64,000 bases of DNA from Eledone cirrhosa. Taxonomy: Eukaryota. The notes under the pieces were generated by a model. The model saw nothing but the letters and a program-made list of their open reading frames with translations, did not search any database and was not told the DNA's origin. Made by a program: the position numbers and the translations under genes. Within the stretch, counting starts at the first letter, position 1, and each line of letters opens with the position of its first letter. This document shows positions 3,238 to 47,700 of the stretch, piece after piece. The stretch covers positions 176,452,001 to 176,516,000 of the forward strand of contig OZ024740.1 in NCBI GenBank assembly GCA_964016885.1, written 5' to 3'.

Positions 3238-3417
3238 TAGGAAAATGTTTGACCCCAACGGCAGAGCTCAAGCCGTTTCTAGTCCAGAAATAGCCGTCGA
3301 AATGGCTTGAGCTCTGCCGTCGGGGTCAAATATTTTCCTATTACCCACTTTACTACCCTAAGTATTGAGTACTCTGGTGCGTTATGGTCCATCTGGTTCC
3401 TTACCATACCTCCTTCG

Positions 3418-3420
<3 letters not shown>
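3238..3420 (+). mobile_element. Family A short fold-back element in (TA)n (other copies 6290-6458, 11210-11347, 19620-19680, 32960-33112)
   Basis: Shared gagctcaagccgtt/aacggcttgagctc core; full copies end in ccttcgtta(TA)n; inverted 5' duplication. Confidence 0.75.
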
Positions 3421-3483
<63 letters not shown>

Positions 3484-3687
3484 CGTTTCTGAATTTGTTT
3501 AGCAAGATTCTTTATCTGAAATCGTGTGTTGAAACCGATATTGTTATACTTTGGGAGGGTCATGTTGCCAATAAGAAACACACGCACCAGTTGCTTTCAC
3601 TTCAGTTTATTATATATTTATAAATTTATAAATTTATAAATTTCTGGTTGGTTGGTTGGTTCCACAACCAGATAGTTGTTTATATAT

Positions 3688-3732
3688 AGTCATAGTTCTT
3701 TCGTCACACACTCTGTGACCTCTTCAGTGACT
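3688..3732 (-). ncRNA. Minimal type I hammerhead ribozyme in PLE 3' pLTR
   Basis: Minus strand: agtca-CTGAAGA-g-gtcaca gagtg tgtgac-GAAA-gaac-TA-tgact. Confidence 0.8.
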
Positions 3733-4359
3733 GGGGATTCCTTTCTTTGTTTCTGTGCCTCTCCTTTGTTCTGTCCTACGCCATTTTGTTTCTGTGTGTG
3801 TGTTGTGTGCTCAGTCTGCGCATGCGCCACATCCGGATGTCTGTGTGTGTTTATGTTCATTTATTTATTTATTTATTTGTTTATTTACATGTTACTGGTT
3901 GGTTGTTTGTTCTATGTGTGTGTGTGTTTTCATTTTGTCCTTAATTGTAAGTTGTGATGTTGCTGTTCCACTCATATTTTCTATTTAATGTTGGTTGTAA
4001 TTCTTTTATGTTTATTGCCTCTGTAATTTGTCTAAACATTGCGTCTTTTCTGTGTGTAGATTCTATTTTTATTTCTATGTTCTCTAATTTACCCTTGTGT
4101 TCTATCTTAGCATGTTGGTAGAGTACAGATGATTCTTTATTATCTTGAAGGTCTCGCCAGTGTTCATTTATCCGTTCCCCTACACTACGAGCTGTCTCAC
4201 CTATGTACACTATATTTTTGTCTCTACATTGTCCTTCAGTACATCTTATGCTATACACTACATTTCTAGTTTTACAGTTAATATGGGGGCTTATTTTACA
4301 GGTTATACATTTCTTATCTATACATGAGGGTCTTTGAAAAGGGTATGTCTTGCTAATAA

Positions 4360-4833
4360 GTGTTTTTACTCAATATTCAGATAGTAGAAAGACCAGGTAC
4401 CTCCGTAAAAACACTTATTAGCAAGACATACCCTTTTCAAAGACCCTCATGTATAGATAAGAAATGTATAACCTGTAAAATAAGCCCCCATATTAACTGT
4501 AAAACTAGAAATGTAGTGTATAGCATAAGATGTACTGAAGGACAATGTAGAGACAAAAATATAGTGTACATAGGTGAGACAGCTCGTAGTGTAGGGGAAC
4601 GGATAAATGAACACTGGCGAGACCTTCAAGATAATAAAGAATCATCTGTACTCTACCAACATGCTAAGATAGAACACAAGGGTAAATTAGAGAACATAGA
4701 AATAAAAATAGAATCTACACACAGAAAAGACGCAATGTTTAGACAAATCACAGAGGCAATAAACATAAAAGAATTACAACCAAAATTAAATAGAAAATAT
4801 GAGTGGAACAGCAACATCACAACTTACAATTAA
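4360..4833 (+). pseudogene. PLE GIY-YIG endonuclease domain with Cys-rich linker (fragment)
   Basis: CIDKKCITC...NVVYSIRC...YIGETARSVGERINEH...RQITEAINIKELQPKLNRK. Confidence 0.9.
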
Positions 4834-5344
4834 GGACAAAATGAAAACACACACACACATAGAACAGGTAAACAGAAATAAAAGCACCATCGGTACAATA
4901 TATGGAAGGAATAAATTAGGTTACCGCCTGAAATTGCAGGAAGGGTATCTCAGAAGAAAGAATGCGAAATTGGATAGATTGAAGGGACAGGCTGGGTGGA
5001 ATTGGAAAAAATGTTTTTCGAGAAAAATAACAGGTCCATATATTTTGCTATCTCTTGGAAAACTACTTACCTACCACAACACTTAATCTTAAATCTTTAA
5101 TTTTTAGTTTTTAATTCTTATTAATTCTTTTTAATTGTAATACTCAACATTTGATAAGATGAATTTTAATAATACATCTAAACCGGTAGTACTTTATATA
5201 CTTTATATACATTATAAAACTCTTTTTAAAAAGAATTGTCCCCCTCATATTTTCAATAACGCCACTTTGACGTGTCAAAGAAAGGAATAAATAAGAAAAG
5301 CAAATCCTAAAATACATTTTCCGTGCTATTTCCAACTTCACCTT

Positions 5345-5840
<496 letters not shown>

Positions 5841-6072
5841 TATATATATATATATATATAAAAATATGGTTTTGTAAGAGATGTCAACATGAATGGAGCT
5901 ATTATTTTTATCTAAAGACATTTTTTCCAATTCCATCCCGCCCGTCCCCTTAATTTATTTTATTTCTCATTCTTTGAAACGTTAAGACCCTCTTCCAGCT
6001 ATATCAAGCGTTAACCTAATATATTCCTTCCATATACTGCACCGATTGTGTTGTTATTTCTGTTTACCTTTT

Positions 6073-9744: not shown

Positions 9745-10810
9745 AAATTTCGTTTCGCTTCTAACTCACTTTTGTATGACTGACGCTTAAACAATTAAGT
9801 TAAAGTGTACATCTACATATGTATACGGAAGTACTAGTATGCATATAAATACACACATGTATACATATGTACATGTACTGAGTTTTTCACTAGACACTTT
9901 ACAGTGAGTGTCCAGCTAGTCTGTATGTAACCACACAGACGGACCGGGTTTTAGAGTCATACGAGTTTTCAAGGAAACACGTTTCCTCTATTCTCCAGAG
10001 AGCCAGACAGGAATATTGGACTAGTTTCGATGTTATTACATCTCATCAGCAATATATACCCATCTTCCGGCTTCTCTAGAGAATTGTAAAAGCACATATC
10101 GTTATATGCTTTTTCTATGAAAATTAGTAGTGGGTAGACTAATTTTCATAGAACGTGAGTCATTGTACGCACCGGTTCAGCGGAAACGATAAAAACAAAT
10201 AACGAAACGAAATTATATTTCGTTTCGCTTCTAACTCACTTTTGTATGACTGACGCTTAAACAATTAAGTTAAAGTGTACATCTACATATGTATACGGAA
10301 GTACTAGTATGCATATAAATACACACATGTATACATATGTACAATTGTTTAAGCGTCAGTCATACAAAAGTGAGTTAGAAGCGAAACGAAATTTAATTTC
10401 GTTTCGTTATTTGTTTTTATCGTTTCCGCTGAACCGGTACGTACAATGACTCACGTTCTATGCAAATTAGTCTACCCACTACTAATTTTCATAGAAAAAG
10501 CATATAACGATATGTGCTTTTACAATTCTCTAGAGAAGCCGGAAGATGGGTATATATTGCTGATGAGATGTAATAACATCGAAACTAGTCCAATATTCCT
10601 GTCTGGCTCTCTGGAGAATAGAGGAAACGTGTTTCCTTGAAAACTCGCATGACTCTAAAACGCGGTCCGTCTGTGTGGTTACATACAGACTAGCTCGACA
10701 CTCACTGTAAAGTGTCTAGTGAAAAACTCAGCACATGTACATATGTATACATGTGTGTATTTATATGCATACTAGTACTTCCGTATACATATGTAGATGT
10801 ACACTTTAAC

Positions 10811-10815
<5 letters not shown>
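9745..10815. mobile_element. HHR-bearing ~470-bp monomer: about 1.3 tandem copies on the minus strand, then one inverted copy ending in (TA)n
   Basis: 9745-9872 is repeated at 10216-10342; 10343-10815 is the reverse complement of the monomer. Confidence 0.85.
10554..10596 (+). ncRNA. Minimal type I hammerhead ribozyme (mirror copy 10013-10055, minus strand)
   Basis: atattg-CTGATGA-gatgt aata acatc-GAAA-ctag-TC-caatat: all core nucleotides canonical, GUC site, palindromic stem III. Confidence 0.92.
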
Positions 10816-10887
<72 letters not shown>

Positions 10888-36700: not shown

Positions 36701-37365
36701 TCCTTTCAACTTGTCATTTTCTGTTTTATCTCTTTTATTAACAGACTTCTCTGAAACTCCGACTACTTCTTTTTCTCTTCTTCAATACAGATTTTCTTAT
36801 TTTCTGATACTAAACAATTTTACTTCATATTAAAATTATATTGTTTCCTTAAATATATATTCGTTCTGACTTTCTAAAGTGTAAACCCTATTATGTTCCA
36901 TCCTTCAGTAGCACTATGTCTGTCTCTCTGTTTCTGTCTGTCTGTCTGTGTCTGCCTGTCTTTTTTACTCTTTCTCTATCTCTCTCATTCTCTTTTTTTC
37001 TCATCTATCTAGCTATATGTTCATGCGGAGGAAAATGCATATGTGTAACAACCAGTATAATAGCATGAGAATGAAGATGGAGTGTTCAACAAAGAAACAG
37101 CCATCTAGTTATTAAACCAACCAAATAGAGATTTGTAATAGATTGAAGTGAAAACCCAGGGGTGCTTGTGTTTTTATTGGTAGCATGACCTTCCCAAAGT
37201 ATAAATATAAATAATATATATATATGTATATAAAGTAATAAGATACACACACAAATACATAAATATATAAATATATAAATATATGTGTGTGTGAAGTCCC
37301 GCTTTGACCTGTCTTGCTCAATGACAGAACAAATTAAAATAACCATTTAATCAGAGCTATTTATC

Positions 37366-46864: not shown

Positions 46865-46917
<53 letters not shown>

Positions 46918-46921
<4 letters not shown>

Positions 46922-47348
46922 TGTTATACTTTGGGAGGGTCATGTTGCCAATAAGAAACACACGCACCACTTGCTTTCACTTCAATTTATTATAATAAAT
47001 TTATAAATTTAGGAATTTATAAATTTCCGGTTGGTTGGTTGGTTCCACAACCAGATGGTTGTTTATATATTGTCAAAGTTCTTTCGTCACACATTCTGTG
47101 ACTTCTTCAGTGACTGGGGATTCTTTTCTTTGTTTGTTTTTGTGCCTCTCCTTTGTTCTGTCCTACGCCATCTTGTATTTAACACACACACAAAAACAAG
47201 ATGGCGTAGGACAGAACAAAGGAGAGGCACAAAAACAAAGAAAAGAATCCCCAGTCACTGAAGAGGTCACAGAATATGTGACGAAAGAACTTTGACAATA
47301 TATAAACAACCATCTGGTTGTGGAACCAACCAACCAACCGGAAATTTA
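46918..47348. mobile_element. Non-coding fold-back derivative of the 3.5-4.9 kb PLE 3' end, with two HHRs (47072-47114 -, 47254-47296 +)
   Basis: 46918-47175 closely matches 3538-3790; gtca-CTGAAGA-g-gtcaca gaata tgtgac-GAAA-gaac-TT-tgac. Confidence 0.88.
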
Positions 47349-47371
47349 TGGAGTTATTAATATTATTCAGA

Positions 47372-47700
47372 ATATTAATAAATGAAGAATTTTCACATAA
47401 TCAAAATATATGTTTTATTATATATATTTCGAAGGTACTGTGCTGTTGTTTCAGTACGTCCTCGTCAGATAAAATACATGAATTGATGGATGACATACCT
47501 CAACGGTCTTGATGGTTCAATTCCAGTATTGGCAGTCCTGGAATTGAACCATCAAGACCGTTGAGGTATGTCATCCATCAATTTATGTATTTTATCTGAC
47601 GAGGACGTACTGAAAAAACAGCACAGTACCTTCGAAATATACGTAATAAAACATATATTATTTTGATTATGTGAAAGTTCTTCATTTATTAATATTTTTA
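47372..47700. mobile_element. Fold-back element with HHRs (47590-47651 +, 47413-47474 -); relative at 49822-49884 (-), possible half-copy at 9588-9637
   Basis: ttttat-CTGACGA-ggac gtactg...cagtac cttc-GAAA-tata(cg/ta)-TA-ataaaa. Confidence 0.85.

What the first reader, a model, noticed from the sequence alone, without database searches (positions are those of the whole stretch)
3480..4867. Link between a coding PLE and a non-coding hairpin element
The GIY-YIG copy is itself a fold-back (~460-bp arms with at least 2 substitutions). Its 3' end (3538-3790) closely matches the ORF-less hairpin at 46918-47348, HHR included. At least one hairpin family is therefore an extreme 5'-truncated, inverted PLE insertion.
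Basis: seen in the sequence. Interest (0 to 1): 0.75.

Follow-up and report, generated by a model that had tools for sequence, protein, structure and literature searches.

The report
Penelope retrotransposon fold-back and its hairpin remnants
The coding fold-back and the ORF-less hairpin are both head-to-head pairs of 5'-truncated copies of one Penelope-like retrotransposon family, an insertion architecture already described for these elements and likely made at integration, so the link is real but ordinary.

Summary
Window 3908-4369 and 4405-4866 are 462-nt inverted arms with exactly 2 mismatches. They encode a GIY-YIG domain. The region 3538-3795 matches both arms of the ORF-less hairpin at 46918-47349 (about 90-92% identity).

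In at least 25 other genomic copies this 3' region is contiguous with the GIY-YIG frame. Two copies carry RT and GIY-YIG together, one of them with a pseudo-LTR.

The family is a young, abundant Neptune-type Penelope-like element. It inserts into (TA)n and ends at one of two sites 56 nt apart (the "tail"). About 60% of sampled insertions are head-to-head fold-backs.

Hairpins cluster in size because arm 5' ends pile up in a 24-nt hot-spot. Their centres differ, so each hairpin is an independent event.

The window's two cases have a partner arm that lacks its own 3' end and a loop of only 19-35 nt. Snap-back self-priming is the likely origin.

The hammerhead fits the published PLE minimal-hammerhead description, but no Rfam model detects it.

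All of these features are already in print for Penelope-like elements. This is a new member of a known kind, and interest is low.

The parts
3419..3481 (.). (TA)n microsatellite, the target flank next to the element's 3' end
   Evidence: In other copies, 35 of 37 true element ends abut (TA)n.
3482..3537 (-). 56-nt 'tail': the stretch between the two alternative 3' ends of the family. In tandem copies it runs on into the element's 5' region.
   Evidence: 19 of 39 ends carry it and 20 stop at the equivalent of 3538. In L032, L011 and L013 it is followed by the 5' region.
3538..3940 (-). 3' untranslated region of the left (complete-ended) copy. Its last ~290 nt are the part repeated as the pseudo-LTR in L032.
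   Evidence: The L032 direct repeat is 1074-1366 / 5117-5427.
3688..3732 (-). Minimal type-I hammerhead-like motif: 5-bp helix I, CUGAAGA, one bulged G, 6-bp helix II, GAAA, 1-bp helix III. The predicted cut lies between 3693 and 3692.
   Evidence: Descriptor scan. The architecture matches passages of Cervera and de la Pena 2014. No Rfam hit.
3941..4369 (-). Left arm coding part: Cx4CxxC linker and GIY-YIG endonuclease, with the stop codon at 3941-3943. The copy is 5'-truncated at 4369.
4370..4404 (+). The 'loop'. It is ordinary element sequence: the right copy starts 35 nt further upstream than the left copy.
   Evidence: Other copies read straight through the equivalent of 4368-4866.
4405..4866 (+). 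Right arm: an inverted duplicate of 3908-4369 (GIY-YIG frame 4360-4833). It stops 33 nt after the stop codon, has no canonical 3' end and has no (TA)n flank.
   Evidence: In other copies and runs the sequence after 4866 continues as AACAACCAACC... (loose ends).
46918..47176 (-). Hairpin left arm: the last ~258 nt of an older lineage of the same element. It has a short-class 3' end abutting (TA)n.
47177..47195 (.). 19-nt centre of the hairpin. 47181-47195 is element sequence of the longer right arm and 47177-47180 is filler.
47196..47349 (+). Hairpin right arm. It lacks roughly the last 95-110 nt of the element and abuts non-(TA)n sequence.
   Evidence: The arms are 95.4% alike over 131 nt.
47072..47114 (-). 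Hammerhead-like motif of the hairpin's left arm
47254..47296 (+). Hammerhead-like motif of the hairpin's right arm, on the opposite strand
37133..37238 (+). Diverged (about 81-84%) solo fragment of the terminal ~70-110 nt of a related lineage, followed by TA-rich sequence

Best explanation
Window 3482-4866 and the ORF-less hairpin at 46918-47349 are each a head-to-head pair of 5'-truncated copies of one Penelope-like retrotransposon family, and each was likely formed in a single integration event in which the first cDNA would fold back on itself and self-prime.

Shown:
- The family encodes RT plus a C-terminal GIY-YIG endonuclease.
- It has a pseudo-LTR and a hammerhead-like motif.
- Its 3' ends lie next to (TA)n, at one of two sites 56 nt apart.
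- Paired copies always have their 3' ends outward.

Inferred:
- The endonuclease cuts (TA)n.
- A TA-ending 3'-OH pairs with AUAU inside an AAUAUCG motif of the RNA and primes reverse transcription.
- In most fold-backs the second DNA end primes at the other AAUAUCG site (two-ended priming, one tail per insertion).
- In the window's two cases the partner arm has no 3' end of its own and the loop is short. There the cDNA 3' end is inferred to have snapped back, copied itself for 154-462 nt and been joined to the other side of the break.
- Hairpins look like a size class because cDNA synthesis often stops in one 24-nt AC-rich stretch about 250 nt from the 3' end.
For: Contiguity and coding capacity.

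Abundance and youth: 574-595 first-look candidates, and the 40 scored are 95-100% identical.

Orientation: 15 of 15 nearby pairs are + then -, meaning 3' ends outward (7 pairs, 8).

Target: 35 of 37 ends abut (TA)n. Both end sites read CGATATT on the + strand, so 4 nt (ATAT) are shared with the flank.

One tail per fold-back: 25 of 27 two-ended fold-backs have one tail end and one short end (the exceptions are L022 and L048). The same holds for 4 of 4 fold-backs with 19-23-nt micro-arms. By hand, P is about 3e-6 if the ends were independent at 0.5.

Frequency in the least biased sample (loci, 25 sites):
- 15 two-ended fold-backs
- 2 internal-only partner arms
- 6 solo copies
- 2 undetermined

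Snap-back class: six insertions have a partner arm without a canonical end, a loop of 2-35 nt and a flank that is not TA. These are the window's copy, L003, L018, L021, L069 and L073. Two-ended fold-backs outside the hot-spot have offsets of 30-1519 nt.

Arm similarity: the window's arms are each other's nearest relative (99.57% against 99.13% for the best other copy). The hairpin's arms are too (95.4% against 92.4%).

Hot-spot: 18 of 80 unselected arms, and 18 of 42 short arms, end at the equivalent of window 3785-3808.

Independent origin of hairpins: at least 21 further hairpins are centred there, and 9 of 9 compared centres differ.

Literature:
- Head-to-head inverted copies, a tail at one end and junction palindromes read as self-priming (passages).
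- Both DNA strands cleaved and extended, and two RT start sites that define the tail (section 3 read in full).
Against: - Snap-back cannot be told apart from two-ended priming followed by deletion of the right arm's terminus and its (TA)n flank. No empty site or relative genome was available.
- The partner arm is not the nearest relative in several two-ended fold-backs: L032 rank 6 of 17, L007 27 of 34, L022 21 of 34, L005 4 of 22, L026 18 of 36. This test is confounded by the arms' own later mutations. L022's arms share a private substitution.
- The cause of the 5'-end hot-spot is unknown. The RNA there has no unusually stable fold (z -0.19).
- The hammerhead is not recognised by any Rfam model, and its helix III loop GAAC is not palindromic.
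- Read data could not confirm the local junctions because only multicopy unitigs were laid.
- Priming by ATAT microhomology is inferred from junction ambiguity only. In vitro, the Anolis element started at sites not homologous to the target.
Confidence: 0.85

Rival explanations
1. Both window fold-backs were made by two-ended target-primed reverse transcription, as most fold-backs of this family were. Each DNA end primed on RNA. A later deletion then removed the right arm's terminal ~95-430 nt together with its (TA)n flank.
For: Two-ended fold-backs are the commonest product: 15 of 25 sites. Seven of the eight sister-lineage hairpins examined have two canonical ends; L046 shows one. Both strands are cleaved and extended in vitro.
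Against: Six independent insertions share the same three features: an internal-only partner arm, a 2-35-nt loop and a non-TA flank. Deletion would not select for short loops, since two-ended offsets outside the hot-spot range from 30 to 1519 nt.
Confidence: 0.25
2. The ~500-bp hairpins are a separate non-autonomous element (retrozyme-like or MITE-like) that spreads as a unit and merely shares its sequence with the PLE pseudo-LTR.
For: At least 22 hairpins have nearly the same arm length. Non-LTR retrozymes are proposed to be PLE pseudo-LTR derivatives (abstract only). A short RNA starting at the hot-spot would explain the size class.
Against: - Centres differ in 9 of 9 hairpins compared, and the end classes vary.
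- Arm lengths form a continuum from about 20 nt to 3.4 kb.
- Solo copies end at the same hot-spot (L017, L030, L070, L072).
- The copies are inverted, not the head-to-tail tandems of retrozymes.
Confidence: 0.08
3. The inverted arms arose after insertion, by a replication fold-back or template-switch inversion unrelated to retrotransposition, or they are an assembly artefact.
For: The arms are almost identical (2 mismatches in 462). Palindromes are known problems for assemblers (passage). Reads could not confirm the junction.
Against: - The same head-to-head arrangement recurs at dozens of loci of this one family, with arms 95-99.7% alike.
- The 3' ends are always outward (15 of 15 pairs).
- The tail asymmetry is regular (25 of 27).
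- The window's arms differ at 2 sites and the structure lies inside a 400-Mb contig.
Confidence: 0.03

Closest known systems
Neptune-clade Penelope-like elements (Arkhipova 2006 as cited; Craig et al. 2021, PMC8557442, passages read)
   Same: - A C-terminal GIY-YIG endonuclease after the RT in one ORF.
- A Cx4CxxC linker upstream of GIY-YIG and CCHH inside it.
- A pseudo-LTR from partial tandems, and an inverted 5'-truncated copy at the 5' end.
- A tail at one end, heavy 5' truncation and a microsatellite ((TA)n) insertion bias.
   Different: The tail is 56 nt rather than the 30-40 nt quoted. The clade is assigned from motifs only, since no RT phylogeny was made. The closest named protein is a hypothetical protein of Octopus vulgaris at 68% identity.
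Adineta vaga Penelope families (Arkhipova et al. 2013, PMC3846280, passages read)
   Same: Inverted pseudo-LTRs head to head. A tail on one of the two inverted pseudo-LTRs. Palindromes at the inverted junction, interpreted as self-priming. Asparagine-rich inserts in the ORF.
   Different: In the rotifer the elements are few and show short target-site duplications. Here there are hundreds of young copies in (TA)n where duplications cannot be read, and most fold-backs have two canonical 3' ends.
Poseidon element PAc of Anolis carolinensis in vitro (Frangieh et al. 2024, PMC11167929, main text read)
   Same: Two adjacent internal reverse-transcription start sites whose spacing equals the genomic tail. 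Both top and bottom strands are cleaved and extended. The target is AT-rich.
   Different: The PAc start sites lie in an AC-rich stem-loop and are not homologous to the target. Here both ends lie in AAUAUCG and share ATAT with (TA)n. In vitro either strand used either site, whereas in this genome one fold-back carries one of each (25 of 27).
Minimal hammerhead ribozymes of PLE pseudo-LTRs (Cervera and de la Pena 2014, PMC4209133, passages read)
   Same: [quoted passage not shown] Pairs of motifs lie on opposite strands 100-700 bp apart, attributed there to truncated PLEs.
   Different: The helix III loop here (GAAC) is not palindromic. Activity is untested and Rfam models do not score it.
L1 5' inversions by twin priming (recalled: Ostertag and Kazazian 2001; not read here)
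   Same: The second DNA end at a staggered break primes on the retrotransposon RNA and gives an inverted 5' part.
   Different: In L1 the inverted piece comes from an internal RNA site and hardly overlaps the 3' piece. Here both arms start at defined 3' sites, or one arm is a self-copy, and they overlap fully, giving true hairpins.

Membership tests
Penelope-like element (EN+) | One ORF with a reverse transcriptase followed by a C-terminal GIY-YIG endonuclease | tested here: met
   L033:1372-3501(-) is one open 710-aa frame. GIY-YIG scores 23.3 bits against a cut-off of 22.6 on the window ORF. RVT_1 scores 23.9 bits, below its cut-off of 29.6, on the L032 frame. RT motif YVDD and EN residues align with 14 homologues. 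Homologues carry PF00078, PF01541 and PF28514, and the atlas neighbours carry the same set.
Penelope-like element (EN+) | Pseudo-LTR formed by a partial tandem copy | tested here: met
   L032 has the direct repeat 1074-1366 / 5117-5427 (90%) around the ORF. L011 and L013 show tail-to-5'-region junctions.
Penelope-like element (EN+) | Inverted 5'-truncated copy adjacent, head to head | tested here: met
   The window's copy, L031, L032, L033 and many others. 15 of 15 pairs have their 3' ends outward.
Penelope-like element (EN+) | [quoted passage not shown] | tested here: met
   The tail is 56 nt. 19 of 39 ends carry it, and it is at one end only in 25 of 27 fold-backs.
Penelope-like element (EN+) | RT groups with PLEs, sister to telomerase RTs, in a phylogeny | not tested
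   No reference PLE set was at hand. The PDB sequence search gave only a weak RT match (E 0.014).
Neptune clade of PLEs | CX2-5CxxC linker between RT and EN, and CCHH within GIY-YIG | tested here: met
   The sequence reads C-IDKK-C-IT-C upstream of GIY-YIG, with C..C between GIY and YIG and two His downstream. The cysteines and the first His are conserved, and the second His aligns in most of the full-length homologues. The criterion comes from passages.
Neptune clade of PLEs | Clade placement by RT phylogeny | not tested
   The linker is also present, in reduced form, in Nematis, so the clade name rests on motifs and the (TA)n bias only.
Hammerhead ribozyme (type I, PLE minimal variant) | Catalytic core CUGANGA...GAAA with helices I and II and a UH cleavage site | tested here: met
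   Descriptor hits at 3688-3732(-), 47072-47114(-) and 47254-47296(+). There were 6 hits in the window and 0 in 30 Markov-1 resamples.
Hammerhead ribozyme (type I, PLE minimal variant) | Recognised by the curated covariance models (Rfam hammerhead families) | tested here: not met
   No hammerhead hit at gathering threshold or at E<=10 on 1601-, 601- and 91-nt stretches.
Hammerhead ribozyme (type I, PLE minimal variant) | Self-cleavage, alone or as a dimer | not testable with these tools
   This needs an in vitro transcription and cleavage assay. Arm 5' ends near the predicted cut (5 arms between -7 and +5 nt) are not exact run-offs.
Non-LTR retrozyme | Head-to-tail tandem repeats of a short hammerhead-bearing unit | tested here: not met
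   The copies are inverted, not tandem. Only the abstract of the 2026 preprint was seen.
MITE / DNA transposon with terminal inverted repeats | Copies share the same internal sequence and ends and have target-site duplications | tested here: not met
   Centres differ in 9 of 9 hairpins. The arms are retroelement 3' ends with variable 5' truncation.

The most novel reading that the evidence does not exclude
In this family integration is normally two-ended and coordinated. The two 3'-OH ends of one break in (TA)n prime on two AAUAUCG sites 56 nt apart, one end at each site and possibly on one RNA. The 'tail' therefore records which end primed where. The ~500-bp hairpin class is the product when both cDNAs stop at one fixed point about 250 nt upstream. 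That point could be the 5' end of a short pseudo-LTR-initiated RNA. If so, hundreds of convergent hammerhead-bearing hairpin loci are by-products of a sub-genomic template.
Probability: 0.3. Interest if true: 0.5.

Novelty: new member of a known kind. Interest (0 to 1): 0.22.

Why it matters
Practical value for annotation. In this 3-Gb, microsatellite-rich genome, hundreds of ORF-less hairpins should be annotated as Penelope-like insertion products. They are not miRNA-like genes, MITEs or assembly errors. Rfam reports many sub-threshold miRNA-family matches on them.

Value for mechanism. The family is young and abundant enough to serve as a natural record of how these elements integrate:
- One tail per fold-back.
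- Two start sites sharing a motif with the target repeat.
- A sharp hot-spot for cDNA ends.
- A separate snap-back class.

These counts agree with the in vitro finding that both strands are cleaved and extended. They suggest, but do not show, that the two ends act together.

Tried and rejected
- **Rfam.** Searches of the whole window and of three sub-regions gave no hammerhead. The many miRNA-family hits are all below gathering scores and reflect any long hairpin.
- **Nearest-relative test of partner arms.** The partner was rank 1 in 4 of 11 fold-backs tested. I rejected the test as a discriminator, because old arms each carry private mutations and then look closer to young copies. The alignment shows a shared private variant in L022.
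- **'Same RNA, trailing RT' polarity.** The prediction was that the tail-bearing arm should be the shorter one. It held in 4 cases and failed in 3, so it is not supported.
- **Arm 5' ends as run-offs at the hammerhead cut.** Five arms end between -7 and +5 nt of it, but two extend 4-5 nt past the cut, so this is not supported.
- **A stable RNA structure as the cause of the 5'-end hot-spot.** The fold of 3680-3880(-) has z -0.19, so this is not supported.
- **PDB sequence search with the 710-aa ORF.** Only a weak RT hit was found.
- **Read laying.** The second, on 3910-5057, gave only multicopy unitigs and RAD reads, with no information on the local junctions.
- **Earlier findings of this scan.** None were found for this genome.
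- **Paper search for twin priming or snap-back in Penelope.** Nothing specific was found.
- **Supplements.** The supplements of Craig et al. 2021, which hold family tables and sequences, were not opened. They may contain cephalopod Neptune families.
Full report
**1. What is at 3480-4867**

The window comes from a 3.0-Gb genome rich in simple repeats.

Positions 3908-4369 and 4405-4866 are inverted repeats of 462 nt, separated by 35 nt. They differ at exactly two sites, 3990/4784 and 4025/4749. The repeat ends abruptly at 3907/4867.

The + strand of the right arm carries an ORF (4360-4833) that hits Pfam GIY-YIG just above the curated cut-off. The same frame lies on the minus strand of the left arm.

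The element's sense strand is therefore the minus strand on the left and the plus strand on the right, so the two copies are head to head.

The 35-nt 'loop' is ordinary element sequence, because other genomic copies read straight through it. The right copy simply starts 35 nt further upstream than the left one.

The left copy runs on to a complete 3' end at 3538 plus a further 56 nt (3482-3537), which abut a (TA)n tract. The right copy stops at 4866, 33 nt after its stop codon. It has no 3' end of its own and lies next to sequence that is not (TA)n. That flank (4867-5057) had only its self match among the 40 candidates scored.

**2. The link to the ORF-less hairpin**

Window 3539-3789 matches 46919-47176 at 91.9%. 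Window 3600-3804 matches the opposite strand of 47181-47387 at 90.0%.

Against a natural full-length copy, the window holds three sites of this family: 3478-4866, 46901-47367 and a diverged fragment at 37133-37238.

The hairpin's left arm has a canonical 3' end next to (TA)n. Comparison with sister hairpins shows that its right arm is homologous only up to about 47349, so it lacks roughly the last 95-110 nt.

**3.

A search of the genome with 3538-3800 found 574 candidates. All 40 that were scored are 95-100% identical.

Mapping 30 loci, and later 30 more, onto the window and onto a natural full-length copy gave a clear result. The 3' region is contiguous with the GIY-YIG frame in every copy long enough to show it, which is at least 25 independent copies. 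I saw no copy in which it joins another upstream sequence.

- L033 is a fold-back with 3.4-kb arms. It has one open 710-aa frame with RT motifs followed by the linker and GIY-YIG. Its RT motif C reads YVDN, so that copy is probably dead.
- L032 has YVDD but two frameshifts.
- L032 is a full-length copy of about 4.35 kb with a direct pseudo-LTR repeat (1074-1366 / 5117-5427). An inverted 5'-truncated copy abuts its 5' end.

**4. What kind of element it is**

The 710-aa frame has 230 relatives at E<=1e-5. The closest named one is a hypothetical protein of Octopus vulgaris (68% identity). Precomputed domains on the hits are GIY-YIG, RVT_1, DUF8422 and HTH_animal. The protein atlas gives the same domain set.

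An alignment with 14 relatives shows these conserved features:
- a Cx4-5CxxC linker;
- two cysteines between the GIY and YIG motifs, and the first of two downstream histidines; the second histidine aligns in most of the full-length homologues;
- the catalytic R, H, E and N positions;
- RT motifs including YVDD.

According to passages of Craig et al. 2021, a C-terminal endonuclease with the CX2-5CxxC linker and CCHH marks the Neptune and Nematis clades. The same passages say the linker was proposed to mediate microsatellite targeting in Neptune.

I did not make a phylogeny, so 'Neptune-type' rests on motifs and target only.

**5. Ends and target**

Of 39 element ends examined, 19 carry the 56-nt tail and 20 stop at the short site. 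Two of the 39 are internal tandem junctions. Of the other 37, 35 abut (TA)n.

In tandem contexts the tail runs on into the element's 5' region.

Both end sites read CGATATT on the window's + strand, which is AAUAUCG in the RNA. Four bases (ATAT) are therefore shared between element and flank at either site.

I infer, but have not shown, that a TA-ending 3'-OH pairs with AUAU and primes reverse transcription at one of two internal sites.

Two adjacent internal start sites that define the tail were shown in vitro for the Anolis element. There the start sites had no homology to the target (main text read).

**6. Fold-backs are the rule in this family**

All 15 nearby pairs of 3' termini are arranged with their 3' ends outward (7 pairs, 8).

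The least biased sample is 41 hits identical over an 85-nt terminal probe, giving 30 loci and 25 sites. Its composition is:

| Class | Sites |
|---|---|
| Two-ended fold-backs (three with a partner arm of only 19-22 nt) | 15 |
| Partner arm internal only | 2 |
| Solo copies | 6 |
| Run off the locus (undetermined) | 2 |

Two-ended fold-backs with two full anchors are sampled twice as easily, so 60% is an upper estimate.

In 25 of 27 two-ended fold-backs, one end has the tail and the other does not. The exceptions are L022 and L048. For two of these I read a tail that carries an internal deletion. All 4 micro-arm cases follow the same rule.

If the ends were independent with a tail frequency near one half, this outcome would have a probability of about 3e-6 (hand calculation).

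A tail 'at one of the inverted pLTRs' is described qualitatively in the literature.

**7. Why hairpins look like a family**

Arm 5' ends are not spread evenly. Of 80 arms not selected for it, 18 end within the equivalent of window 3785-3808, an AC-rich stretch in the RNA. Of the 42 arms shorter than about 310 nt, these 18 make up 43%.

A search with the centre of the window's hairpin found at least 21 further loci matched across the centre on both strands. That search favours such loci.

When 8 of them were aligned with the window's hairpin, the arms stopped within about 15 nt of each other. However, all 9 centres differ in sequence and filler, and the end classes vary.

The hairpins are therefore independent products with a preferred turning point, not copies of one hairpin.

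The cause of the hot-spot is open. The RNA there has no unusually stable fold. A short pseudo-LTR-initiated RNA, or a protein roadblock, remain untested ideas.

**8. Two ways to make the second arm**

Most fold-backs have two canonical ends. Their truncation points differ by anything from 0 to 1519 nt. This fits priming from both DNA ends, as seen in vitro. In L015 the junction lies in 7 nt of GTGTGTG microhomology.

A second class has three features: a partner arm with no end of its own, a flank that is not TA, and a loop of only 2-35 nt. Its members are the window's coding copy (35-nt loop), L003 (2), L018 (5), L021 (6), L073 (9) and L069. The window's hairpin (19-nt centre, right arm without a terminus) fits this class too.

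Short loops, and arms that are each other's closest relatives, point to snap-back self-priming of the cDNA. The arm identities are 99.57% against 99.13% for the best other copy, and 95.4% against 92.4%. Arkhipova et al. 2013 proposed self-priming from junction palindromes.

I cannot exclude two-ended priming followed by deletion.

**9. The hammerhead**

On the sense strand the motif reads: helix I (5 bp), CUGAAGA, one unpaired G, helix II (6 bp, 5-nt loop), GAAA, a 1-bp helix III, then UA and the cut.

My descriptor finds it in the coding copy and in both arms of the hairpin. It gave 6 hits in the window against none in 30 resamples.

The features match the minimal hammerheads that Cervera and de la Pena 2014 found in PLE pseudo-LTRs: a long helix II, a short helix I and a bulged base 5' of stem II. 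Those authors also noted pairs of motifs on opposite strands 100-700 bp apart.

Against this, no Rfam hammerhead model scores the motif. The helix III loop is not palindromic. Nothing here shows cleavage.

**10. Verdict**

The architecture is the textbook one for Penelope-like elements: head-to-head copies, a pseudo-LTR, a tail at one end, a hammerhead, microsatellite targeting, self-priming palindromes and even asparagine-rich ORF inserts.

This is a new, well-preserved family of a known kind.

The quantitative regularities may be useful to people who study the integration mechanism. They are one tail per fold-back, the shared AAUAUCG start motif, the 5'-end hot-spot and the separate snap-back class.

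Noticed in passing
window 9788-10821: A second fold-back: arms 9788-10295 and 10314-10821, 508 nt, 96%, 18-nt spacer. Each arm carries a canonical-looking type-I hammerhead (CUGAUGAG...CGAAAC, loop UAG, UC) at about 10049(-) and 10560(+). The 3' ends again face outward. It is probably another PLE family. Rfam did not report it at gathering threshold.
   Followed up: partly
window 5058-5340: Another abundant repeat (4018 first-look candidates, 87-93% identity). It has a fixed end at 5340 next to (CT)n(TA)n and variable starts, like the 3' end of a 5'-truncated retroelement. Several genomic copies also lie in inverted pairs.
   Followed up: partly
window 5488-5845; 3241-3337; 47440-47624: Further palindromes not related to this PLE family. 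5488-5666/5667-5845 has 179-nt arms, 99% identity and no spacer. The hairpin at 3241-3337 has relatives at about 19630, 33050 and 6300. The hairpin at 47440-47624 has arms that are 95% alike.
   Followed up: partly
window 12505 (minus strand): A single further hit of the minimal hammerhead descriptor. It was not examined.
   Followed up: no
L032:3469-5175(-) and L033:3680-4459(-): The N-terminal part of the element's ORF holds a long asparagine/threonine-rich low-complexity tract. It resembles the N-rich inserts described in rotifer Penelope ORFs.
   Followed up: no
L026:1012 and L052, L053, L058, L067 junctions: Five arm 5' ends fall within -7 to +5 nt of the predicted hammerhead cut. In L026 the end is compatible with the exact site, given 3 nt of junction ambiguity. 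This is too few and too imprecise to claim that cleaved RNA is used as a template.
   Followed up: partly
window 3482-5057 in public runs: Runs under at least eight other coded organism labels hold 26-41% of the stretch's sampled words. Two of them (X4, X6) gave element contigs with 0-5 differences per 35-400 nt. Near-identical copies of this family therefore occur under several species labels. Their relatedness is unknown to me.
   Followed up: partly
L074:391-2970: One locus has two copies tail to tail (3' ends inward, about 40 nt apart in (TA)n) beside a head-to-head micro-arm. It looks like two separate insertions into one microsatellite.
   Followed up: no
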